A DNA stretch of 64,000 nt from Haliotis rubra (Eukaryota), in NCBI RefSeq assembly GCF_003918875.1, contig NW_025767346.1, positions 2,728,001 to 2,792,000 of the forward strand, given 5' to 3'. The number at the start of each line of letters is the position of its first letter. Position 1 is the first letter of the stretch. A program made the position numbers. Below, in pieces: positions 55,001 to 61,000 of this stretch.

Positions 55001-58000
55001 ACAATTGTGACGATCAGTGACTGTTGAGAAGCTGTGTGATGAACTCTACCTTTGTTTTGTGTTGTCTTACACACCTGTAATCAGCACAGCGTGTTACCTG
55101 TACGCCAGTAGCCGATGTGTACAGTTCTACAGTGTGTATCTATATATATACGTAACTGGCCTTGTACACTGACGTTAAGTACAGTTCTCCGAAAGGATAT
55201 TTGCTTAGTTTGAAAATACTGCAACGGACATAGCATGTAATGAACACTGCTCGTGTACTCTTACACTATCGCGTGTTCAGGTAATTTAGTTTGTTAATGG
55301 ACGCTAAGCATAATTTAATTCTCCAGATAAATATGTATAAGGCTTGCAAAATACTGTAAATTTAAGTGCAGATGGAATCTATCTGAATCAACTCCGTTCA
55401 TTGAAAAGAGAATATGTTACAGCTATTGTTTTACCATGCCTTCATTTTTGTGTGTGTCAGTTCACCAACCTTCATACATGAACTTGTAAATCATAAATCG
55501 TAATTACGATTTGTTAGTCATATGCTATATACTGTTATCTCCAGTTCAATCATATAACATAAAATATTTTATAAGTAATGAAAATATTCTTTGTTTCGAT
55601 ATTGTTTGTCTAACGCCACTCAGGTGAAACTTGATGGACGCGTGTTTTATATTTCGTAAGTTATTGATCATGCAAGTAAGTTATATACTAAACCAAGCAT
55701 GTGTATATCCATATGTAACAACTGCTACACATTCTCCTCTTAGGCAACGGCTTGATAGTCAAGATGTTGAAATGTGGCAAATGTAAAGGTAAAGTTTGAT
55801 CTCATGGGAAAATATAACCTTATACTACCAGAGGGATTCCATAACTAACGACATACATGAACATGTTTCAGGAACAGAAAGTCGCACCTGACAGAAAAAA
55901 GTATGAACCCGTGCGATCCTTATTGTCTTCTGATCTTTATGACCTTTCTCTCTGGAAGTAAGTACACTCAACGTGCTGCCAGACAAATAAGGTTTTCGTG
56001 GGGGGGTGCAACCAGTATTAAGCGGTACAGTGGATTAACTGACGGGGGTAGGGATCAACTCATTTGTGTTTAAGAAGCAAGTAATTATTTTGCCTGTGTG
56101 AATATTTTTACTCCTGTTCATCTTCAAAGAAAGTCGAATCTACTTCTCGAATGCCACATGTTCCACTTGGGTGTTTCGAAACTGAAATACAGTACTAACA
56201 CGTCACTGACCTAGAGGTTATGTGAAATCAGTCACTATATTCGTACATCTTCACAAAGTGTCACCTGTGAAGCACAGAATACAGAAACCATGAATATGTA
56301 GTACCCGTGATGGCGCAGTGATATGTTCCTATGCTGTATAGTATTGGGTGCAAATATTTATATGAATCAATCAATACTCATTTGTATTGAATTAATATGA
56401 ATTCAAGTACTTGTTTTTCAGCCACTGGGGCAAGCCTAACCGCATCACCAAGCAAAAAAACAATCAGGGGCAGTAACCCAACATCTCAGTTGACTGTAAG
56501 TTGCAGGCCAAATGCACCTGGGATAACACAGGTGTTTACCATAGAGATCGGCAAGAAGTCCTCTACTGGCTCTGATCAGCCTATAATACGATTGACCAAC
56601 ACAGATACGTCAGTACAAGTAGTGGACACAAGTCTACAACAGCGGATGACAGCCTCAGGTTCTATCAGTGGAGCAAGAGGCAGTATACAGTTCATCCTGA
56701 CAAACCTGAGATGTGCTGATGCTGCTTCTACATACTACTGCACAACAATATACTTGACGGGGTCATCTGGAAGTGATGAGGCAACTACCAACATTACAGC
56801 TAGAAGTGCGTAATGTTAATATTTACTCCGACTGAATCTGAAACGTTTTGAATTCTTGAGATACACACACACATACTCATACACACATCCTATATGTGTG
56901 TGTGTATATGTACACTATATTGTATGTTTGTGTATATATAGATATTTGACATTTAAGTTGTTTCACTGCATTATTTAGTGTTATCTCTGCACACGTGTCT
57001 TGTATGTACTTGCATTAGTTACAATTTAAACAATCTAATCAGGTGCTATTCATGCAAATCAAATAGATATTTATAAAACCTTTAGACAGTTCCTATTACA
57101 TCTGAAGTATTTAAAATTGTTACTATATTGGCAATATTGTCGTTCTTCTTCTCCTATTTCTGGAGTGTTGACTTACAATGTCTATATACTTTCTTACAGC
57201 TTACCCAGAGCAGATAGAGATGTTCCCATCTCCTGACAGGCTGCATTATGACGATGGTCAGCTCATCTCATGTGAGCGTTCAGTCAGAAAATTGACAAAA
57301 CAAGACCGACTCTGAGCACTAATTGAAGGTTTCATTGAAGCAAACTAAAGTTTACTAAAATCACCGTAAAATAAGGTGAGATGAGTACGGTTGCCGGGGT
57401 CGTTACAACAGACACACAACATAGTTCATATGTTGAACACACTTGAAAGGTCCACAATGACTGGCTAAGTCAGTATCTGGTGTAACCGCCTCGCACTTGG
57501 ACCAGACGTCTGATTCTCTGTTGGGGGATCTGCTGCCACTCATCATGCAATGCATGGTTCAATTCCTGACGGTTCTGAACTAGAGGATCCCTTGCTCTCA
57601 CCCTACGTCCCAAATTGTCCCACAAATGCTCAATAGGATTCATGTCTGGACTTCTGGCTGGCCATGGTAGTGTCTCAATGGCGTTGTGTTGGATATGCTG
57701 AACAACAGCTCGAGCACGATTTGGTCTTACATTATCGTCCATGAAGACTGGATGTGTGGCGAGAGCATGGTTATCGAAATAAGGCACTACGGCACCGTCC
57801 AGGATCAAGTTCGGGTACCTCTGTCCATTCAATGGACTATGATGAGGTCAAGTTTACGATCATAGGAACAACGTCCCCACACCATGACGGATCCACCCTC
57901 AGAACTCGTGCCCTCCCGCCTGTATGATGCAGCAAAATCGGCTTTCATCGGACCAATGGATCCTTTCCATGTCCTCAGGTTCCAGCAAGCACGTGCTTGG

Positions 58001-61000
58001 CACCAGGATAAATGGGCATGGTGGTACAGATTTGTGAGGAGTGGACGTCTGATTGGTCGTCTTGCTCTCAATCCTGCAGAATGTAGGCGTCGTCTGATGG
58101 TGCTGATGGACACACTGTTGTATGGATGCCATCTATGTCGCAGCTGTGTACAAGTGGACATTGGGCTTCGTCTGGCATGGCGTACAAAAGCCATCTTCCA
58201 TGTCATTGTTTCTTTCTGGGACGTCCAGACCTCGGTGCATCCTTCACTTCACCGGTAGCAGTATGCTTACCTATCAGCCTGCTGATGACAGTACGATTAA
58301 TGTCCAGTTGTGCTCCAATAGCATGACATGACATACCCGTCTGGTGCATACCAATACTTTGCCATTATTGGTTCAGAGGCACTGGACGCTTGGACATTTC
58401 ACTGGTTCGTCAAAAAAAAAGCTTAATTTCTGCCTACAATCACATTTTAGCTGTCTGCCAACATAACATACGCCAAAGGGGGCTATGTGCATACTGCATT
58501 TATAGCTTAAGGCAAGCATGCACGTGCAGCTCGGAACATCTGTGGTATTATGTTTACAGATGGTGTCGTATATTACATATGTACGTGTAGTGTAAAAAGA
58601 ACGAAAATCATATTTCTACTTTGACTTTTGGTGGTGTGATACTTTTGACAAGGTGTATAGATGACTTTAAAAGTATACCTGGTTCAAATTTATGCAAAAC
58701 GGGAATTCATATCTCCGATTTCTCGTGAAAATGACATTTATTCTATTCCATGAAGAGCTTCATGTTCTAGTCAAATGTATTCAACTTTTCATACCAGGAC
58801 GACAAACATTCAAACAGGAAGGCTACAATTACAATGGGATGAAATCGTTATCTATATTAGGCCTATATTTGAAGAGTGTTATGCAGATGAACCTTATATA
58901 TCAGACGGGTACACCATACATGTTAGCAGGACAGCAACAGAAGGAAAGGATCAGGACTACCTTCTAACTGCTGTATTTGTTTCAGGTCAACAACCACCAG
59001 GGGAAACATCTACTTCCGAAACGCCCACAAGTGGTGAGTTTTGTATAACAGAAAGAAAGCAAGAGTGAGTTAACATCAACAATCATACTAACACATTCAC
59101 CATGGCACATATTTCAGACAACGGTGGCTATACACATTACTGACATTTTTGTGTCAAAGTGTCGTCTTCAGACTAAAAACGACATTGCCATTCTTTAATG
59201 GCATTCGTGCATTTCTTATTGGACCCAAACGTTAGTGATTGTTCCTGATCCAATATAGTGCCTCTTTAAATACCAAGGCGACAAACATTCAAATAGGAAG
59301 GCTACTATTACAATGATAAGAAATCGTTGTTGACCCTGCTTAAATCAAGTCTATGTTCAAAGTGTGCTACACACATAAACTTATATGTACACAGGGTACA
59401 TCTTGCATGTCAGCAGGACAACAACAGAAGCAAAGTTTCAGCTTTACTTACTAACTGTCATATCAGTTTTTGCAGGTGAACAACCGCCACCACCTCCACC
59501 TCCTTCAGAAAAGCCTGCATGTGGTGAGTTTTGTATAGCTGAACGGAAGCAACAATCAATTCAGGTAATCGTCAGGAATGTGAACTTTGGAAATGTCTTG
59601 CCTATTTTTTTTTACAGGATATTTATAAAGCGCACATATCCACGCAACAAATGCATGCTCATTTACTATATACTCTTTAATGACGTCATATTTACCCTTA
59701 TCAGTGGTATTCTTCCATCGCTTTCTGAGCCTTCAATCTGCATCATTGTTGTTCCTCCAACCATTGCTGCCCCAATAGTGTGATTACAATCTCACATACG
59801 CTGTTATGTTTCGTTTGCTTTAGTTATGGTTGATGACACTCCTGTATTTGAGGTAGATAGGCTGAATTGTTAATGGTAGCATTTGCTTAATCGATCGGTA
59901 AACATATATTCATCGGAAGGTATACAGAGGGTACTTAAGCTTCTTTGGTTGACGTACTATCATGTGTTCTGTCCATCATACAGATGTTAAGAAGGATACT
60001 TTGCACATGAGTTTGGCCTGTAAGTAACTGAGTCAGGGCCTGAGAAAGATCAGTGTAAGGCAGTCTCATGGCAGAAATGATAAAAATGGGATATAGGGAC
60101 TGATCACTCATTCCAGGACCTCATAATAGATATGTTAAGGGGTTGAGTTATGTGCTACAAGAACATTTCCAAATATCTTTTAAAAAAGGAGGGTATAGTG
60201 TTTACAAGAGATTTGGTATGGCCCTGGTGAATTATAGTTAGGCTGAATGAACACAAGCGAAGACCTTCACGTACCTGCACTTGGTCTAAATACGTCCTTT
60301 CAGAAGCTTCTGTAAAATGCTGGATCAGTCAGTGCAAACATGAGACAGTAACACATTCCTCACAACTAGGTATTACCAAAACACAATGATTTTATCTTAT
60401 ACTGAAACTTAACAAAACAATGTATTATAGTCACAATATTTGGTTACAATAAATTAAACTGCCATGCAGTCATAGAAATACATTTTATGTTTCAAATGAC
60501 AGCGGCATGTGTCCAAGAGAACCAGGATACCTCTCTTGTTGTTGGAGTGGCTATAGGTGTGAATGTCATGCTGGTTGTTGATGCCATCTGTCTGGGTTTG
60601 GCGTTCGTCTTCAGGGACAAACTAGCAAACTGCATATCAGGTAGGTACTTTACGTGATAATGTTTTGGGAATGTTTAAATGTCTCAAGACAGAAGAAGGT
60701 ATGTATAGTTGTAACAGTTCTTAATCTCTCTGTCAAAGTCATAAAGCATTTCACATGTATATCCATCATAGACAGGAATTCTACAATGGAGCTAACCGTT
60801 ATGCTGTTAAAACTATGAATTCTTGTTCTGGATGAGAATAGAAATGTTGCTATGGAACACGGCATAAAACAGCAAAGAAGAAATAAAGTTAATCAAGCGA
60901 TGAGAGTTTGAATGTTGGCAATGACCACCAAGGGTCATAAGGCAAAGTCGCAAATGGTCGGATGGCATAAACAATGTGTGACCACATTTATTGGCACTTC

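What the first reader, a model, noticed from the sequence alone, without database searches (positions are those of the whole stretch)
57200..58986. Tc1 insertion-deletion removes Ig2 in gene C but leaves an in-frame splice donor
Seen: the Ig2 exon breaks after ...DDGQLIS, and host sequence resumes only in the next intron (~58660), so most of the exon and one Tc1 end are deleted. The junction reads TCA T|GTGAGC, a donor giving a 72-nt phase 1-1 exon that splices in frame to the stalk exon and creates a Cys codon (T+GT). All downstream exons are intact. Inference: a transposon remodelled a two-Ig receptor into a single-V receptor instead of killing it.
Basis: partly seen in the sequence, partly recalled or inferred. 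Interest (0 to 1): 0.68.

Follow-up and report, generated by a model that had tools for sequence, protein, structure and literature searches.

The report
Transposon-linked loss of an Ig exon
In one copy of an abalone cell-surface receptor gene, a dead Tc1-type transposon sits where most of the second immunoglobulin exon used to be; the gene can still be read in frame, but nothing here shows that it is still used.

Summary
The window is abalone (Haliotis) DNA carrying four tandem paralogues of an Ig-superfamily receptor. In gene C the second Ig exon stops after 72 nt (57200-57271). An antisense, decayed Tc1-like fragment follows (57272 to about 58655). Paralogue homology resumes only inside the next intron (58673). 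About 280 nt of exon and about 55 nt of intron are gone, and the element has no terminal-repeat partner on that side. The junction reads CAT|GTGAGC. Spliced to 58986, the stub stays in phase 1-1 and would make a TGT codon. All other exons of gene C are open with GT/AG borders.

- The insertion was intronic; a later one-sided deletion removed the exon.
- The in-frame outcome is unremarkable: every ectodomain exon is phase 1-1, so skipping the stub also keeps the frame, and 6.4% of random junctions give an equally good in-phase donor.
- A stronger donor 104 nt downstream would give an out-of-frame exon past a stop codon.
- Gene C's own substitutions look neutral (omega about 0.9), like gene B, which carries a nonsense codon.
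- Against decay, the exons of genes C and B have almost no indels compared with their introns.
- No transcript data were available.

The parts
55903..55957 (+). Gene C signal-peptide exon (MNPCDPYCLLIFMTFLSG, ends in phase 1)
   Evidence: tblastn with Haliotis relatives
56422..56805 (+). Gene C D1 exon (V-like Ig domain), 384 nt, phase 1-1, open
   Evidence: Profile A2 hits the FR3 region of antibody V-kappa chains, E 5.8e-6. The AF2 model has low confidence (pLDDT 56.1), yet its Foldseek hits are nanobody and CRIg V domains, TM 0.64-0.75.
57200..57271 (+). Stub of the D2 (second Ig) exon: 72 nt, phase 1-1. The first 71 nt are host sequence; the T at 57271 is not (A and B have A there).
   Evidence: In the D2 model, residues 1-23 cover only strand A and the first three residues of strand B, ahead of the B-strand Cys26.
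57272..57277 (+). Junction donor GTGAGC, supplied by the inserted DNA; in context CAT|GTGAGC
   Evidence: 7 of 9 consensus matches and U1 duplex -4.5 kcal/mol. The 22 family donors score 6-8 of 9 and -2.8 to -13.2.
57313..57315 (+). First in-frame stop (TGA) if the stub is read through into the insert
   Evidence: ORF 57172..57315; sequence
57376..57381 (+). Competing cryptic donor AAG|GTGAGA; would give a 176-nt out-of-frame exon that contains the stop
   Evidence: 8 of 9 consensus matches, -9.6 kcal/mol
57272..58655 (-). Tc1-like element fragment, antisense to gene C. The 5' end is retained and the 3' end with its terminal repeat is missing.
   Evidence: No other copy of this family is in the window.
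57473..58397 (-). Decayed transposase gene: nonsense at codon 11, at least 4 frame changes, gaps of about 24 and 11 residues
   Evidence: tblastn with P0032 (341 aa; 80% identity over the last 125 residues)
58656..58657 (.). TA next to the retained element end, the likely target-site copy; corresponds to TA at 37666-67 in paralogue A's intron
   Evidence: Read, and from the permissive alignment. Too short for statistics.
58673..58985 (+). Retained 3' part of the host intron, with the acceptor for the stalk exon
   Evidence: 89% identical to A 37676-38179
58986..59033 (+). Stalk exon 1 (QQPPGETSTSETPTS), phase 1-1
59476..59523 (+). Stalk exon 2 (tandem duplicate, shared with gene B), phase 1-1
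60503..60640 (+). Transmembrane exon, open. 3 departures at 14 family-conserved columns, including Cys to Asn.
61294..61336 (+). Cytoplasmic exon 1, open; 8 non-synonymous and 1 synonymous C-specific changes
61966..62015 (+). Cytoplasmic exon 2, open
63081..63196 (+). Last exon (GGDEYEVPVDRSDYDALQREAVDVPNTYETIRTYQNV, then stop); all four tyrosines kept
37260..37610 (+). Comparator: the intact D2 exon of paralogue A (351 nt)
   Evidence: AF2 pLDDT 91.5, pTM 0.83; the 50 matches listed are mostly antibody variable-domain chains.
45906..46256 (+). Comparator: the D2 exon of paralogue B, with an in-frame TAA at 45974-45976

Best explanation
History, largely shown. A Tc1-family DNA transposon inserted, antisense, at a TA in the intron about 55 nt downstream of the second Ig exon of gene C. 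Gene C is the last of four tandem paralogues of an abalone Ig-superfamily receptor. The canonical build is signal, V-like D1, Ig-like D2, stalk, membrane anchor with an Asp, and a tail with four tyrosines. A later one-sided deletion removed the element's 3' end with its terminal repeat, the first part of the intron, and 280 of the 351 nt of the D2 exon. What remains is a 72-nt symmetric stub whose 3' border is a transposon-side GT.

Consequence, inferred. The Ig domain cannot form, because only strand A is left. The reading frame survives in two ways: use of the junction donor, or skipping of the stub. All ectodomain exons in this family are phase 1-1, so any exon loss stays in frame.

Status, my commitment. 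Gene C is most likely a copy drifting under little constraint in a birth-and-death receptor cluster. It is not yet broken elsewhere, and it is not shown to be in use. If transcribed, part of its RNA probably uses the stronger downstream donor and meets a premature stop. RNA-level removal of the transposon by pairing of its terminal repeats is not available, because one repeat is gone.
For: Structure:
- Breakpoints.
- Tc1 identity and decay.
- No partner repeat.
- Retained end beside a TA that matches a TA in A's intron.

Frame:
- Every ectodomain exon is phase 1-1.
- The random-junction null gives 6.4%.

Drift:
- C-lineage changes are 12 synonymous and 35 non-synonymous, omega about 0.91, P = 0.45 against neutrality. 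Gene B (in-frame TAA) shows 14 and 43, omega 0.96. The A lineage shows 16 and 24, omega 0.47, P = 0.017.
- Gene C departs from family-conserved residues at 3 of 14 TM columns; 12 of 13 database segments show 0-1.
- It departs at 3 of 24 tail columns; the 12 database segments show 0-2.
- It departs at 5 of 76 D1 columns; the 44 database segments show 0-8.
- Cytoplasmic exon 1 has 8 non-synonymous and 1 synonymous C-specific changes.

Splicing: a competing donor at 57376 is stronger and lies past the TGA at 57313-15.

Context: every paralogue in the window departs from the canonical build.
- A has a +1 frameshift in its last exon.
- B has a TAA in D2, and 12 of 76 departures in D1.
- Gene 0 has no Ig exons at all.

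Architecture: no annotated relative has D1 followed directly by stalk and TM. This covers the 9 TM-bearing models among the 31 hits and the 3 further TM-bearing models.
Against: - All nine remaining coding exons of gene C (930 in-frame nt) are open with canonical splice sites.
- Exons of the C-B pair carry 1 gap opening in 915 aligned nt, against 33 in 2550 aligned intron nt (Fisher P = 6e-4). At half the intron rate, zero indels in C's 954 coding nt has P = 0.002. So the frame was under selection for most of the time since the B-C split.
- The Tc1 fragment has at least 5 indels in about 930 nt. If it was intact on arrival, gene C stayed indel-free over a comparable time.
- The last exon keeps all four tyrosines and is 84% identical to a H. 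rubra relative; B's is 66%.
- There is no AATAAA or ATTAAA on the sense strand of the new intron.
- The junction donor is as good as the family average by consensus (7 against a mean of 6.9 of 9).
- Annotated relatives with reduced ectodomains exist: P0098 has D2 only, and P0141 and P0142 have no Ig domain.
- Substitutions alone cannot decide: 16-22% of neutral replicates keep every exon open.
- The omega test rests on three paralogues, unrooted, with possible gene conversion.
Confidence: 0.55

Rival explanations
1. Gene C is a working receptor remodelled to a single V-like domain. The stub is spliced at the transposon-supplied donor, adding 24 residues and a new Cys before the stalk, or it is skipped. 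The product reaches the membrane with its signalling tail.
For: - All other exons are open with GT/AG sites.
- Both splice routes are in frame.
- The donor matches 7 of 9 consensus positions, within the family range.
- No poly(A) hexamer lies in the new intron.
- Exons are depleted of indels relative to introns, while the Tc1 fragment decayed.
- The tail tyrosines are kept.
- Relatives with reduced ectodomains are annotated in other abalones, and gene 0 in this window has none.
- Precedent: KIR genes that lost an Ig domain through a pseudoexon (PMC3504360, passage).
Against: - Omega is about 0.91 on the C lineage, no different from nonsense-bearing gene B.
- A stronger out-of-frame donor lies 104 nt downstream.
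- Departures at conserved TM and tail positions exceed those of nearly all annotated relatives.
- No D1-stalk-TM relative is annotated.
- The date of the deletion is unknown, so the indel argument covers mostly the time before it.
- There are no expression data.
Confidence: 0.3
2. The Tc1 piece is not an in-place insertion. It is filler DNA copied from a Tc1 copy elsewhere while a chromosome break that deleted the exon was being repaired. Alternatively, the deletion is an ordinary one unconnected with transposon activity.
For: - Only one end looks like an element terminus, and it cannot be verified without a second copy.
- The 17 nt between 58655 and 58672 cannot be assigned.
- The element was probably dead for a long time, so an excision-linked deletion needs a transposase supplied in trans.
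Against: - The fragment is colinear with a whole transposase gene from codon 1 to the stop, plus 258 nt upstream and 198 nt downstream.
- The retained end abuts a TA at a position where paralogue A also has a TA, as expected for Tc1-type integration.
Confidence: 0.1
3. The structure is an assembly error, or a rare haplotype that does not represent the species.
For: A single assembled sequence was seen. Tandem paralogues 85-89% identical invite mis-joins.
Against: - Both junctions lie in unique, N-free sequence. The only N run is 29484-29631.
- Both flanks belong to gene C by their own pattern of differences from A and B.
- A collapse of paralogues would not create a Tc1 fragment.
Confidence: 0.05

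Closest known systems
Removal of Tc1 from C. elegans pre-mRNAs through cryptic splice sites. Rushforth and Anderson 1996 was seen only as a cited title; PMC231018 is not held. A dpy-19 example is in PMC12405876 (passage read).
   Same: A Tc1-family insertion in a gene, with splice sites in or beside the element allowing the transposon to be removed from the RNA. In the dpy-19 case this caused a frameshift deletion of 49 bp in exon 7.
   Different: There the whole element sits in an exon and the DNA is otherwise intact. Here the element is intronic, truncated and antisense. The exon itself is deleted in the DNA, and splicing is only predicted.
SOS splicing of DNA transposons from animal mRNAs (PMC12779559; abstract and two passages read)
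   Same: A way for genes to survive DNA-transposon insertions at the RNA level.
   Different: According to the abstract, it is triggered by base-pairing of the two inverted terminal repeats. Here the partner repeat is absent, so this route should not apply. It also would not restore the deleted exon.
KIR pseudoexon 3 in primate NK-cell receptors (PMC3504360; passage read)
   Same: An Ig-superfamily receptor in a fast-evolving tandem family loses one Ig domain because its exon is no longer incorporated, and the shorter receptor stays in frame.
   Different: In KIR the exon is still present and is skipped, the shorter receptors are proven functional, and the passage read mentions no transposon.
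Transposon-induced deletions next to Tc1 insertions in C. elegans. The unc-68 paper's abstract mentions such deletions (PMC2120954, search listings). The use of Tc1 deletion derivatives for gene knock-out is recalled, not read.
   Same: Loss of flanking host DNA together with part or all of a Tc1 element.
   Different: Those are laboratory alleles recovered as nulls. Their breakpoint anatomy was not checked here.
Transposon exonization, meaning cryptic splice sites in transposons spliced into host mRNAs (passage in PMC12632400)
   Same: A splice site contributed by transposon DNA.
   Different: Only the GT and its intron side come from the insert. No transposon sequence would be translated if the junction donor were used.

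Membership tests
Tc1/mariner DNA transposon | DD(E/D) transposase with N-terminal paired-like HTH domains | tested here: met
   Pfam HTH_Tnp_Tc3_2 (50.7 bits, cut-off 31.5) and DDE_3 (35.3 bits, cut-off 28.6). Colinear with the 341-aa transposase P0032. The gene is broken: 1 nonsense, at least 4 frame changes, 2 gaps.
Tc1/mariner DNA transposon | Two terminal inverted repeats | tested here: not met
   No inverted partner of the retained end in 57150-58750, nor in the whole window with up to 3 mismatches. This is a truncated fragment, not a complete element.
Tc1/mariner DNA transposon | TA target-site duplication | tested here: inconclusive
   A TA at 58656-57 abuts the retained end and matches a TA in A's intron. 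The other copy would lie in the deleted part, and the stretch is too short for statistics.
Immunoglobulin superfamily receptor (V-like D1 plus Ig-like D2) | Ig beta-sandwich fold of D2 with the Cys-Trp-Cys core | tested here: met
   - AF2 on alignment A3: pLDDT 91.5, pTM 0.83.
- The 50 Foldseek matches listed are mostly antibody variable-domain chains, TM 0.43-0.62.
- The A3 profile hits Fab light chains and CD276, E 1e-10 to 1e-13.
- C26, W45 and C100 are conserved.
- Pfam on the exon itself is below cut-off (C2-set_2, 14.2 against 21 bits).
- Of the 15 distant relatives scanned, 2 reach an Ig-model cut-off over the D2-like region: P0110 (C2-set_2) and P0127 (Ig_2).
Immunoglobulin superfamily receptor (V-like D1 plus Ig-like D2) | V-set character of D1 | tested here: inconclusive
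   - Pfam gives no Ig hit.
- Profile A2 matches the FR3 region of V-kappa chains ending in YYC, E 5.8e-6.
- The AF2 model is poor (pLDDT 56.1).
- Its best Foldseek hits are nevertheless all V domains, TM 0.64-0.75.
Spliceosomal exon with a usable 5' splice site (the 72-nt stub) | GT donor with consensus context and an upstream AG acceptor with a pyrimidine tract | tested here: met
   Donor 7 of 9 matches; acceptor pyrimidine score 14 of 20 against 12-15 for the gene's other exons.
Spliceosomal exon with a usable 5' splice site (the 72-nt stub) | Actual use in transcripts | not testable with these tools
   No transcript or eukaryotic genome collection was available. A stronger competing donor exists at 57376.
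Substrate of SOS splicing | Base-pairing inverted terminal repeats flanking the insert in the RNA | tested here: not met
   the criterion is taken from the abstract of PMC12779559.
Unprocessed pseudogene | Disabling lesions beyond the first one, and neutral substitution pattern | tested here: inconclusive
   There are no further stops or frameshifts and the exons are indel-poor. But omega is about 0.91, with excess departures at conserved TM and tail sites.

The most novel reading that the evidence does not exclude
A splice donor donated by a truncated Tc1 element has been taken into use, so that gene C makes a single-V-domain receptor with a short linker and a new unpaired cysteine. On this reading, the four neighbours with two, two (one stopped), one and no Ig domains are a living series, in which symmetric phase 1-1 exons and transposon-linked deletions generate receptor architectures in an invertebrate.
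Probability: 0.2. Interest if true: 0.55.

Novelty: new member of a known kind. Interest (0 to 1): 0.3.

Why it matters
If gene C is expressed in frame, it would be a clean natural example of a DNA transposon changing the domain architecture of an invertebrate Ig-superfamily receptor rather than destroying it. The event would sit in a tandem cluster that already shows copies with two, one and no Ig domains. It would also be a test case for how genes cope with transposon damage once the pairing of terminal repeats is no longer possible. If it is not expressed, this is ordinary gene decay in a birth-and-death family. Its main use is then for annotation: do not call gene C a two-Ig receptor.

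Tried and rejected
- Direct Pfam assignment of the D1 and D2 exons gave nothing above cut-off, so I went through profiles and folds instead.
- I looked for a second copy of this Tc1 family, to define its 3' end and date it. There is none in the window. A tblastn with P0032 found only a different, 26%-identical Tc1/mariner remnant at 17277-18197.
- A permissive local alignment suggested that host intron might reach back to 58634. With BLAST-like scoring, the region 58540-58672 scores no better against A or B than shuffled sequence does (65% and 98% of shuffles reach the observed score). 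I rejected that.
- Pairwise dN/dS (0.54-0.84) cannot be assigned to one lineage, so I replaced it with lineage-specific counts.
- A substitution-only simulation of neutral decay has no power: 16-22% of replicates stay open.
- ARAGORN finds no tRNA gene in the SINE-like repeats.
- A literature search for this receptor family listed 4 papers, none about it by title or abstract.
- Rushforth and Anderson 1996 could not be read.
The same request went through later.
- The spliced model of gene C was never joined. Searches and folds were done exon by exon, so the predicted junction and full product were not looked up anywhere.

Full report
WHAT THE WINDOW IS

The V-like exon of gene C finds 31 proteins, all from Haliotis species. 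They are named 'uncharacterized' or 'mucin-like', and the best is 86% identical. The window is therefore abalone DNA, and gene C itself is not among the proteins returned.

Self-BLAST and tblastn with three full-length relatives (P0023, P0025, P0026) show tandem paralogues on the plus strand:
- gene A, about 35869-40863;
- gene B, 44409-50628;
- gene C, 55903-63196;
- a fourth copy, here called gene 0, 15336-21147.

The canonical build, from the relatives' sequences, is a signal peptide, D1, D2, a Pro/Thr-rich stalk, a membrane anchor containing an Asp, and a tail with four tyrosines. Signal, D1, D2, stalk and TM exons all end in phase 1.

CHECKING THE OBSERVATION

The D2 exon of gene A is 37260-37610 (351 nt). 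In gene C the homologous exon starts at 57200 behind the same acceptor and follows A and B up to 57270. It reads YPEQIEMFPSPDRLHYDDGQLIS.

Clear homology returns at 58673, which equals A 37676 inside the next intron (89% over 504 columns). A relaxed BLAST of 57272-58672 against the whole window finds nothing but two trivial hits. So 280 nt of exon and about 55 nt of intron are gone.

The intervening DNA carries, on the minus strand, the remains of a Tc1-type transposase.
- Pfam HTH_Tnp_Tc3_2 and DDE_3 both score above their cut-offs.
- Against the closest intact relative found (P0032, 341 aa, an unnamed record; 65 hits), it is colinear from codon 1 (58397) to the stop (57470-72).
- It has a nonsense codon at position 11, at least four frame changes, and gaps of about 24 and 11 residues.
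- Upstream of the start codon there are 258 nt, ending at about 58655 next to a TA. Downstream of the stop there are only 198 nt.
- No inverted copy of the retained end exists.

The junction reads TCA T|GTGAGC. The stub is 72 nt and phase 1-1. The next exon begins GT at 58986, so the junction codon would be TGT (read). Signal, D1, two stalk exons, TM and three cytoplasmic exons are open with GT/AG borders.

Every search and fold was done exon by exon, so the predicted junction peptide and whole product were not looked up in any collection.

CORRECTIONS TO THE PICTURE

First, the element went into the intron, not the exon. Its retained end abuts a TA (58656-57) where paralogue A has a TA 55 nt into the intron (37666-67). 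The exon was lost by a second, one-sided deletion that also took the element's 3' end. The stretch 58655-58672 is too short to assign. A permissive alignment that pulled host sequence back to 58634 does not beat shuffled controls.

Second, the domain labels needed support, because Pfam does not call either exon.
- D2 of gene A has 49 representative relatives at E up to 0.001.
- Of the 15 distant relatives I scanned, two (P0110, P0127) reach a Pfam Ig-model cut-off over the D2-like region, and three others carry ig or V-set domains above cut-off elsewhere.
- A profile of 28 sequences hits Fab light chains across V and C domains, and CD276, at E 1e-10 to 1e-13.
- The AF2 model is confident (pLDDT 91.5), and the 50 listed fold matches are mostly antibody variable-domain chains, with modest TM of 0.43-0.62.
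- D1 is less secure. Its profile matches the FR3 region of V-kappa chains ending in YYC (E 5.8e-6). Its model is poor (pLDDT 56.1), though its best matches are all V domains (TM 0.64-0.75).
- The 23 residues left of D2 cover only strand A and the first three residues of strand B. They can only act as a linker.

IS THE IN-FRAME DONOR MORE THAN CHANCE?

CAT|GTGAGC matches 7 of 9 consensus positions. The 22 accepted donors of genes A-C score 6-8 (mean 6.9), and 4.2% of the 4370 GT dinucleotides on the window's plus strand score as well. Its calculated pairing with the U1 5' end (-4.5 kcal/mol) is in the weak half of the family range (-2.8 to -13.2).

In a null model, the 71 host bases were followed by random window DNA. 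In 6.4% of 20000 trials an in-phase donor of this quality appeared before the first stop.

Because the stub's neighbours are phase 1-1, skipping it (56805>58986) also keeps the frame. The frame-preserving outcome is therefore a mild coincidence, not a signature of selection.

A stronger donor, AAG|GTGAGA at 57376 (8 of 9, -9.6 kcal/mol), lies 104 nt downstream, past the in-frame TGA at 57313-15. It would give a 176-nt out-of-frame exon. No AATAAA or ATTAAA lies on the sense strand of the new intron.

IS GENE C ALIVE?

Evidence that it is drifting:
- Parsimony over the three paralogues gives 12 synonymous and 35 non-synonymous changes private to C (omega about 0.91, P = 0.45 against neutrality).
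- Gene B, which has an in-frame TAA, gives 14 and 43 (0.96). The A branch gives 16 and 24 (0.47, P = 0.017).
- C departs from family-conserved residues at 3 of 14 TM columns (12 of 13 database segments show 0-1).
- It departs at 3 of 24 tail columns (the 12 database segments show 0-2).
- It departs at 5 of 76 D1 columns (the 44 database segments show 0-8; B has 12).
- Nine of the 31 D1-bearing relatives carry the membrane anchor. None of those nine, and none of the three further TM-bearing models, shows D1 followed directly by stalk and anchor.

Evidence that it has been kept:
- No stop or frameshift in 930 in-frame nt.
- In the C-B comparison, exons have 1 gap opening in 915 nt against 33 in 2550 intron nt (Fisher P = 6e-4). 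At half the intron rate, zero indels in C's coding DNA has P = 0.002.
- The Tc1 fragment collected at least five indels in about 930 nt.
- The last exon keeps all four tyrosines and is 84% identical to a H. rubra relative, against 66% for B.

The weakness of the second group is timing. The indel argument covers the whole period since the B-C split, most of which may precede the deletion. The Tc1 copy may also have been defective on arrival. Substitutions alone have no power. I therefore put about 0.55 on drift or decay and about 0.3 on a working single-domain receptor.

CONTEXT IN THE CLUSTER

- Gene A has a +1 frameshift in its last exon that replaces the last three tyrosine motifs with a short new end.
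- Gene B has a TAA at 45974-76, at exactly the codon homologous to the last D2 codon left in C. It also has a 9-nt shorter, eroded D1.
- Gene 0 goes from the signal exon straight to a stalk exon after a 456-nt intron. It has no D1 or D2 exon, while its TM and tail exons match H. rubra P0025 at 79-95% with no stop in the aligned parts.
- Other abalones have annotated models with D2 only (P0098) or with no Ig domain (P0141, P0142).

Loss of ectodomain exons with the frame kept thus recurs in this family. This fits both a birth-and-death process and real architectural variety.

COMPARISON WITH WHAT IS KNOWN

- Tc1 insertions can be removed from C. elegans pre-mRNAs through cryptic splice sites. 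I read a dpy-19 example (PMC12405876). The classic 1996 paper was seen only as a citation and is not held.
- The recently described SOS splicing depends on pairing of the two terminal repeats (PMC12779559, abstract).
- Primate KIR genes with pseudoexon 3 are the nearest functional precedent for an Ig receptor that dropped a domain in frame (PMC3504360, passage).
- I found no paper on this abalone family. The only search was, with four unrelated listings.

WHAT STAYED UNCHECKED

- Transcripts, other individuals, orthologous loci, and other genomic copies of the element were not checked, because no eukaryotic genome or transcript collection was on hand.
The bacterial and archaeal genome collection was not used.
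- Paper supplements were not consulted.

VERDICT

This is a new member of a known kind: a transposon-linked exon deletion with a cryptic donor. Interest is modest unless expression is shown.

Noticed in passing
window 45974-45976 (gene B, D2 exon 45906-46256): An in-frame TAA sits at exactly the codon homologous to the last D2 codon retained in gene C (TCA in A and C). The rest of B's D2 is well conserved (3 of 76 departures, one of them the stop). B's D1 is 9 nt shorter and eroded (12 of 76). The coincidence of position is unexplained.
   Followed up: partly
window 40747-40863 (gene A, last exon): A one-base insertion shifts the frame after ...DEYEVPIDRK and ends the protein 11 codons later. 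This removes the last three tyrosine motifs. The A lineage otherwise shows purifying selection (omega about 0.47).
   Followed up: partly
window 15336-21147 ('gene 0'): A fourth paralogue has signal, stalk, TM and three tail exons but no D1 or D2 exon. The intron between the signal exon (15336-15390) and the stalk exon (about 15846-15884) is only 456 nt. The TM and tail exons are 79-95% identical to H. rubra P0025, with no stop in the aligned parts. Similar Ig-less models (P0141, P0142) are annotated in other abalones.
   Followed up: partly
window 17277-18197 (+): A second, unrelated Tc1/mariner-type transposase remnant (26% identity to P0032 over 324 columns) lies inside the long intron of gene 0.
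   Followed up: no
window 58785-59062 and 59264-59552; gene B 46426-46700 and 46853-47156: A tandem duplication of about 480 nt carries the 48-nt stalk exon, so genes B and C have two stalk exons and gene A has one. The second stalk exon ends in ...PAC, a cysteine just outside the membrane.
   Followed up: partly
window 53947-54309 and 52821-53020: A 21-nt satellite (17.3 copies, 94% matches) lies upstream of gene C. A more diverged array of the same unit, in inverted orientation, lies about 1 kb before it. Together they form a large potential hairpin.
   Followed up: partly
window 63581-63729, 39564-39703, 27062-27212, 21666-21814, 18345-18426 and others: A dispersed repeat of about 150 nt that looks like a SINE with a tRNA-like head. 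ARAGORN calls no tRNA gene in the window.
   Followed up: partly
window 63081-63196 (gene C, last exon): Gene C reads SDYDAL where relatives read N.YDAL or N.YEAL. Against the ITIM consensus as I recall it (S/I/V/L-x-Y-x-x-I/V/L), only C's version fits. The tail also ends in YQNV. The motif definitions are recalled, not tested.
   Followed up: no
window 45400-45800 (gene B, intron 1): An insert of about 400 nt that is absent from A and C. It is rich in repeated CGATAC/GTATCG words arranged as inverted repeats, and may be a small non-autonomous element.
   Followed up: no
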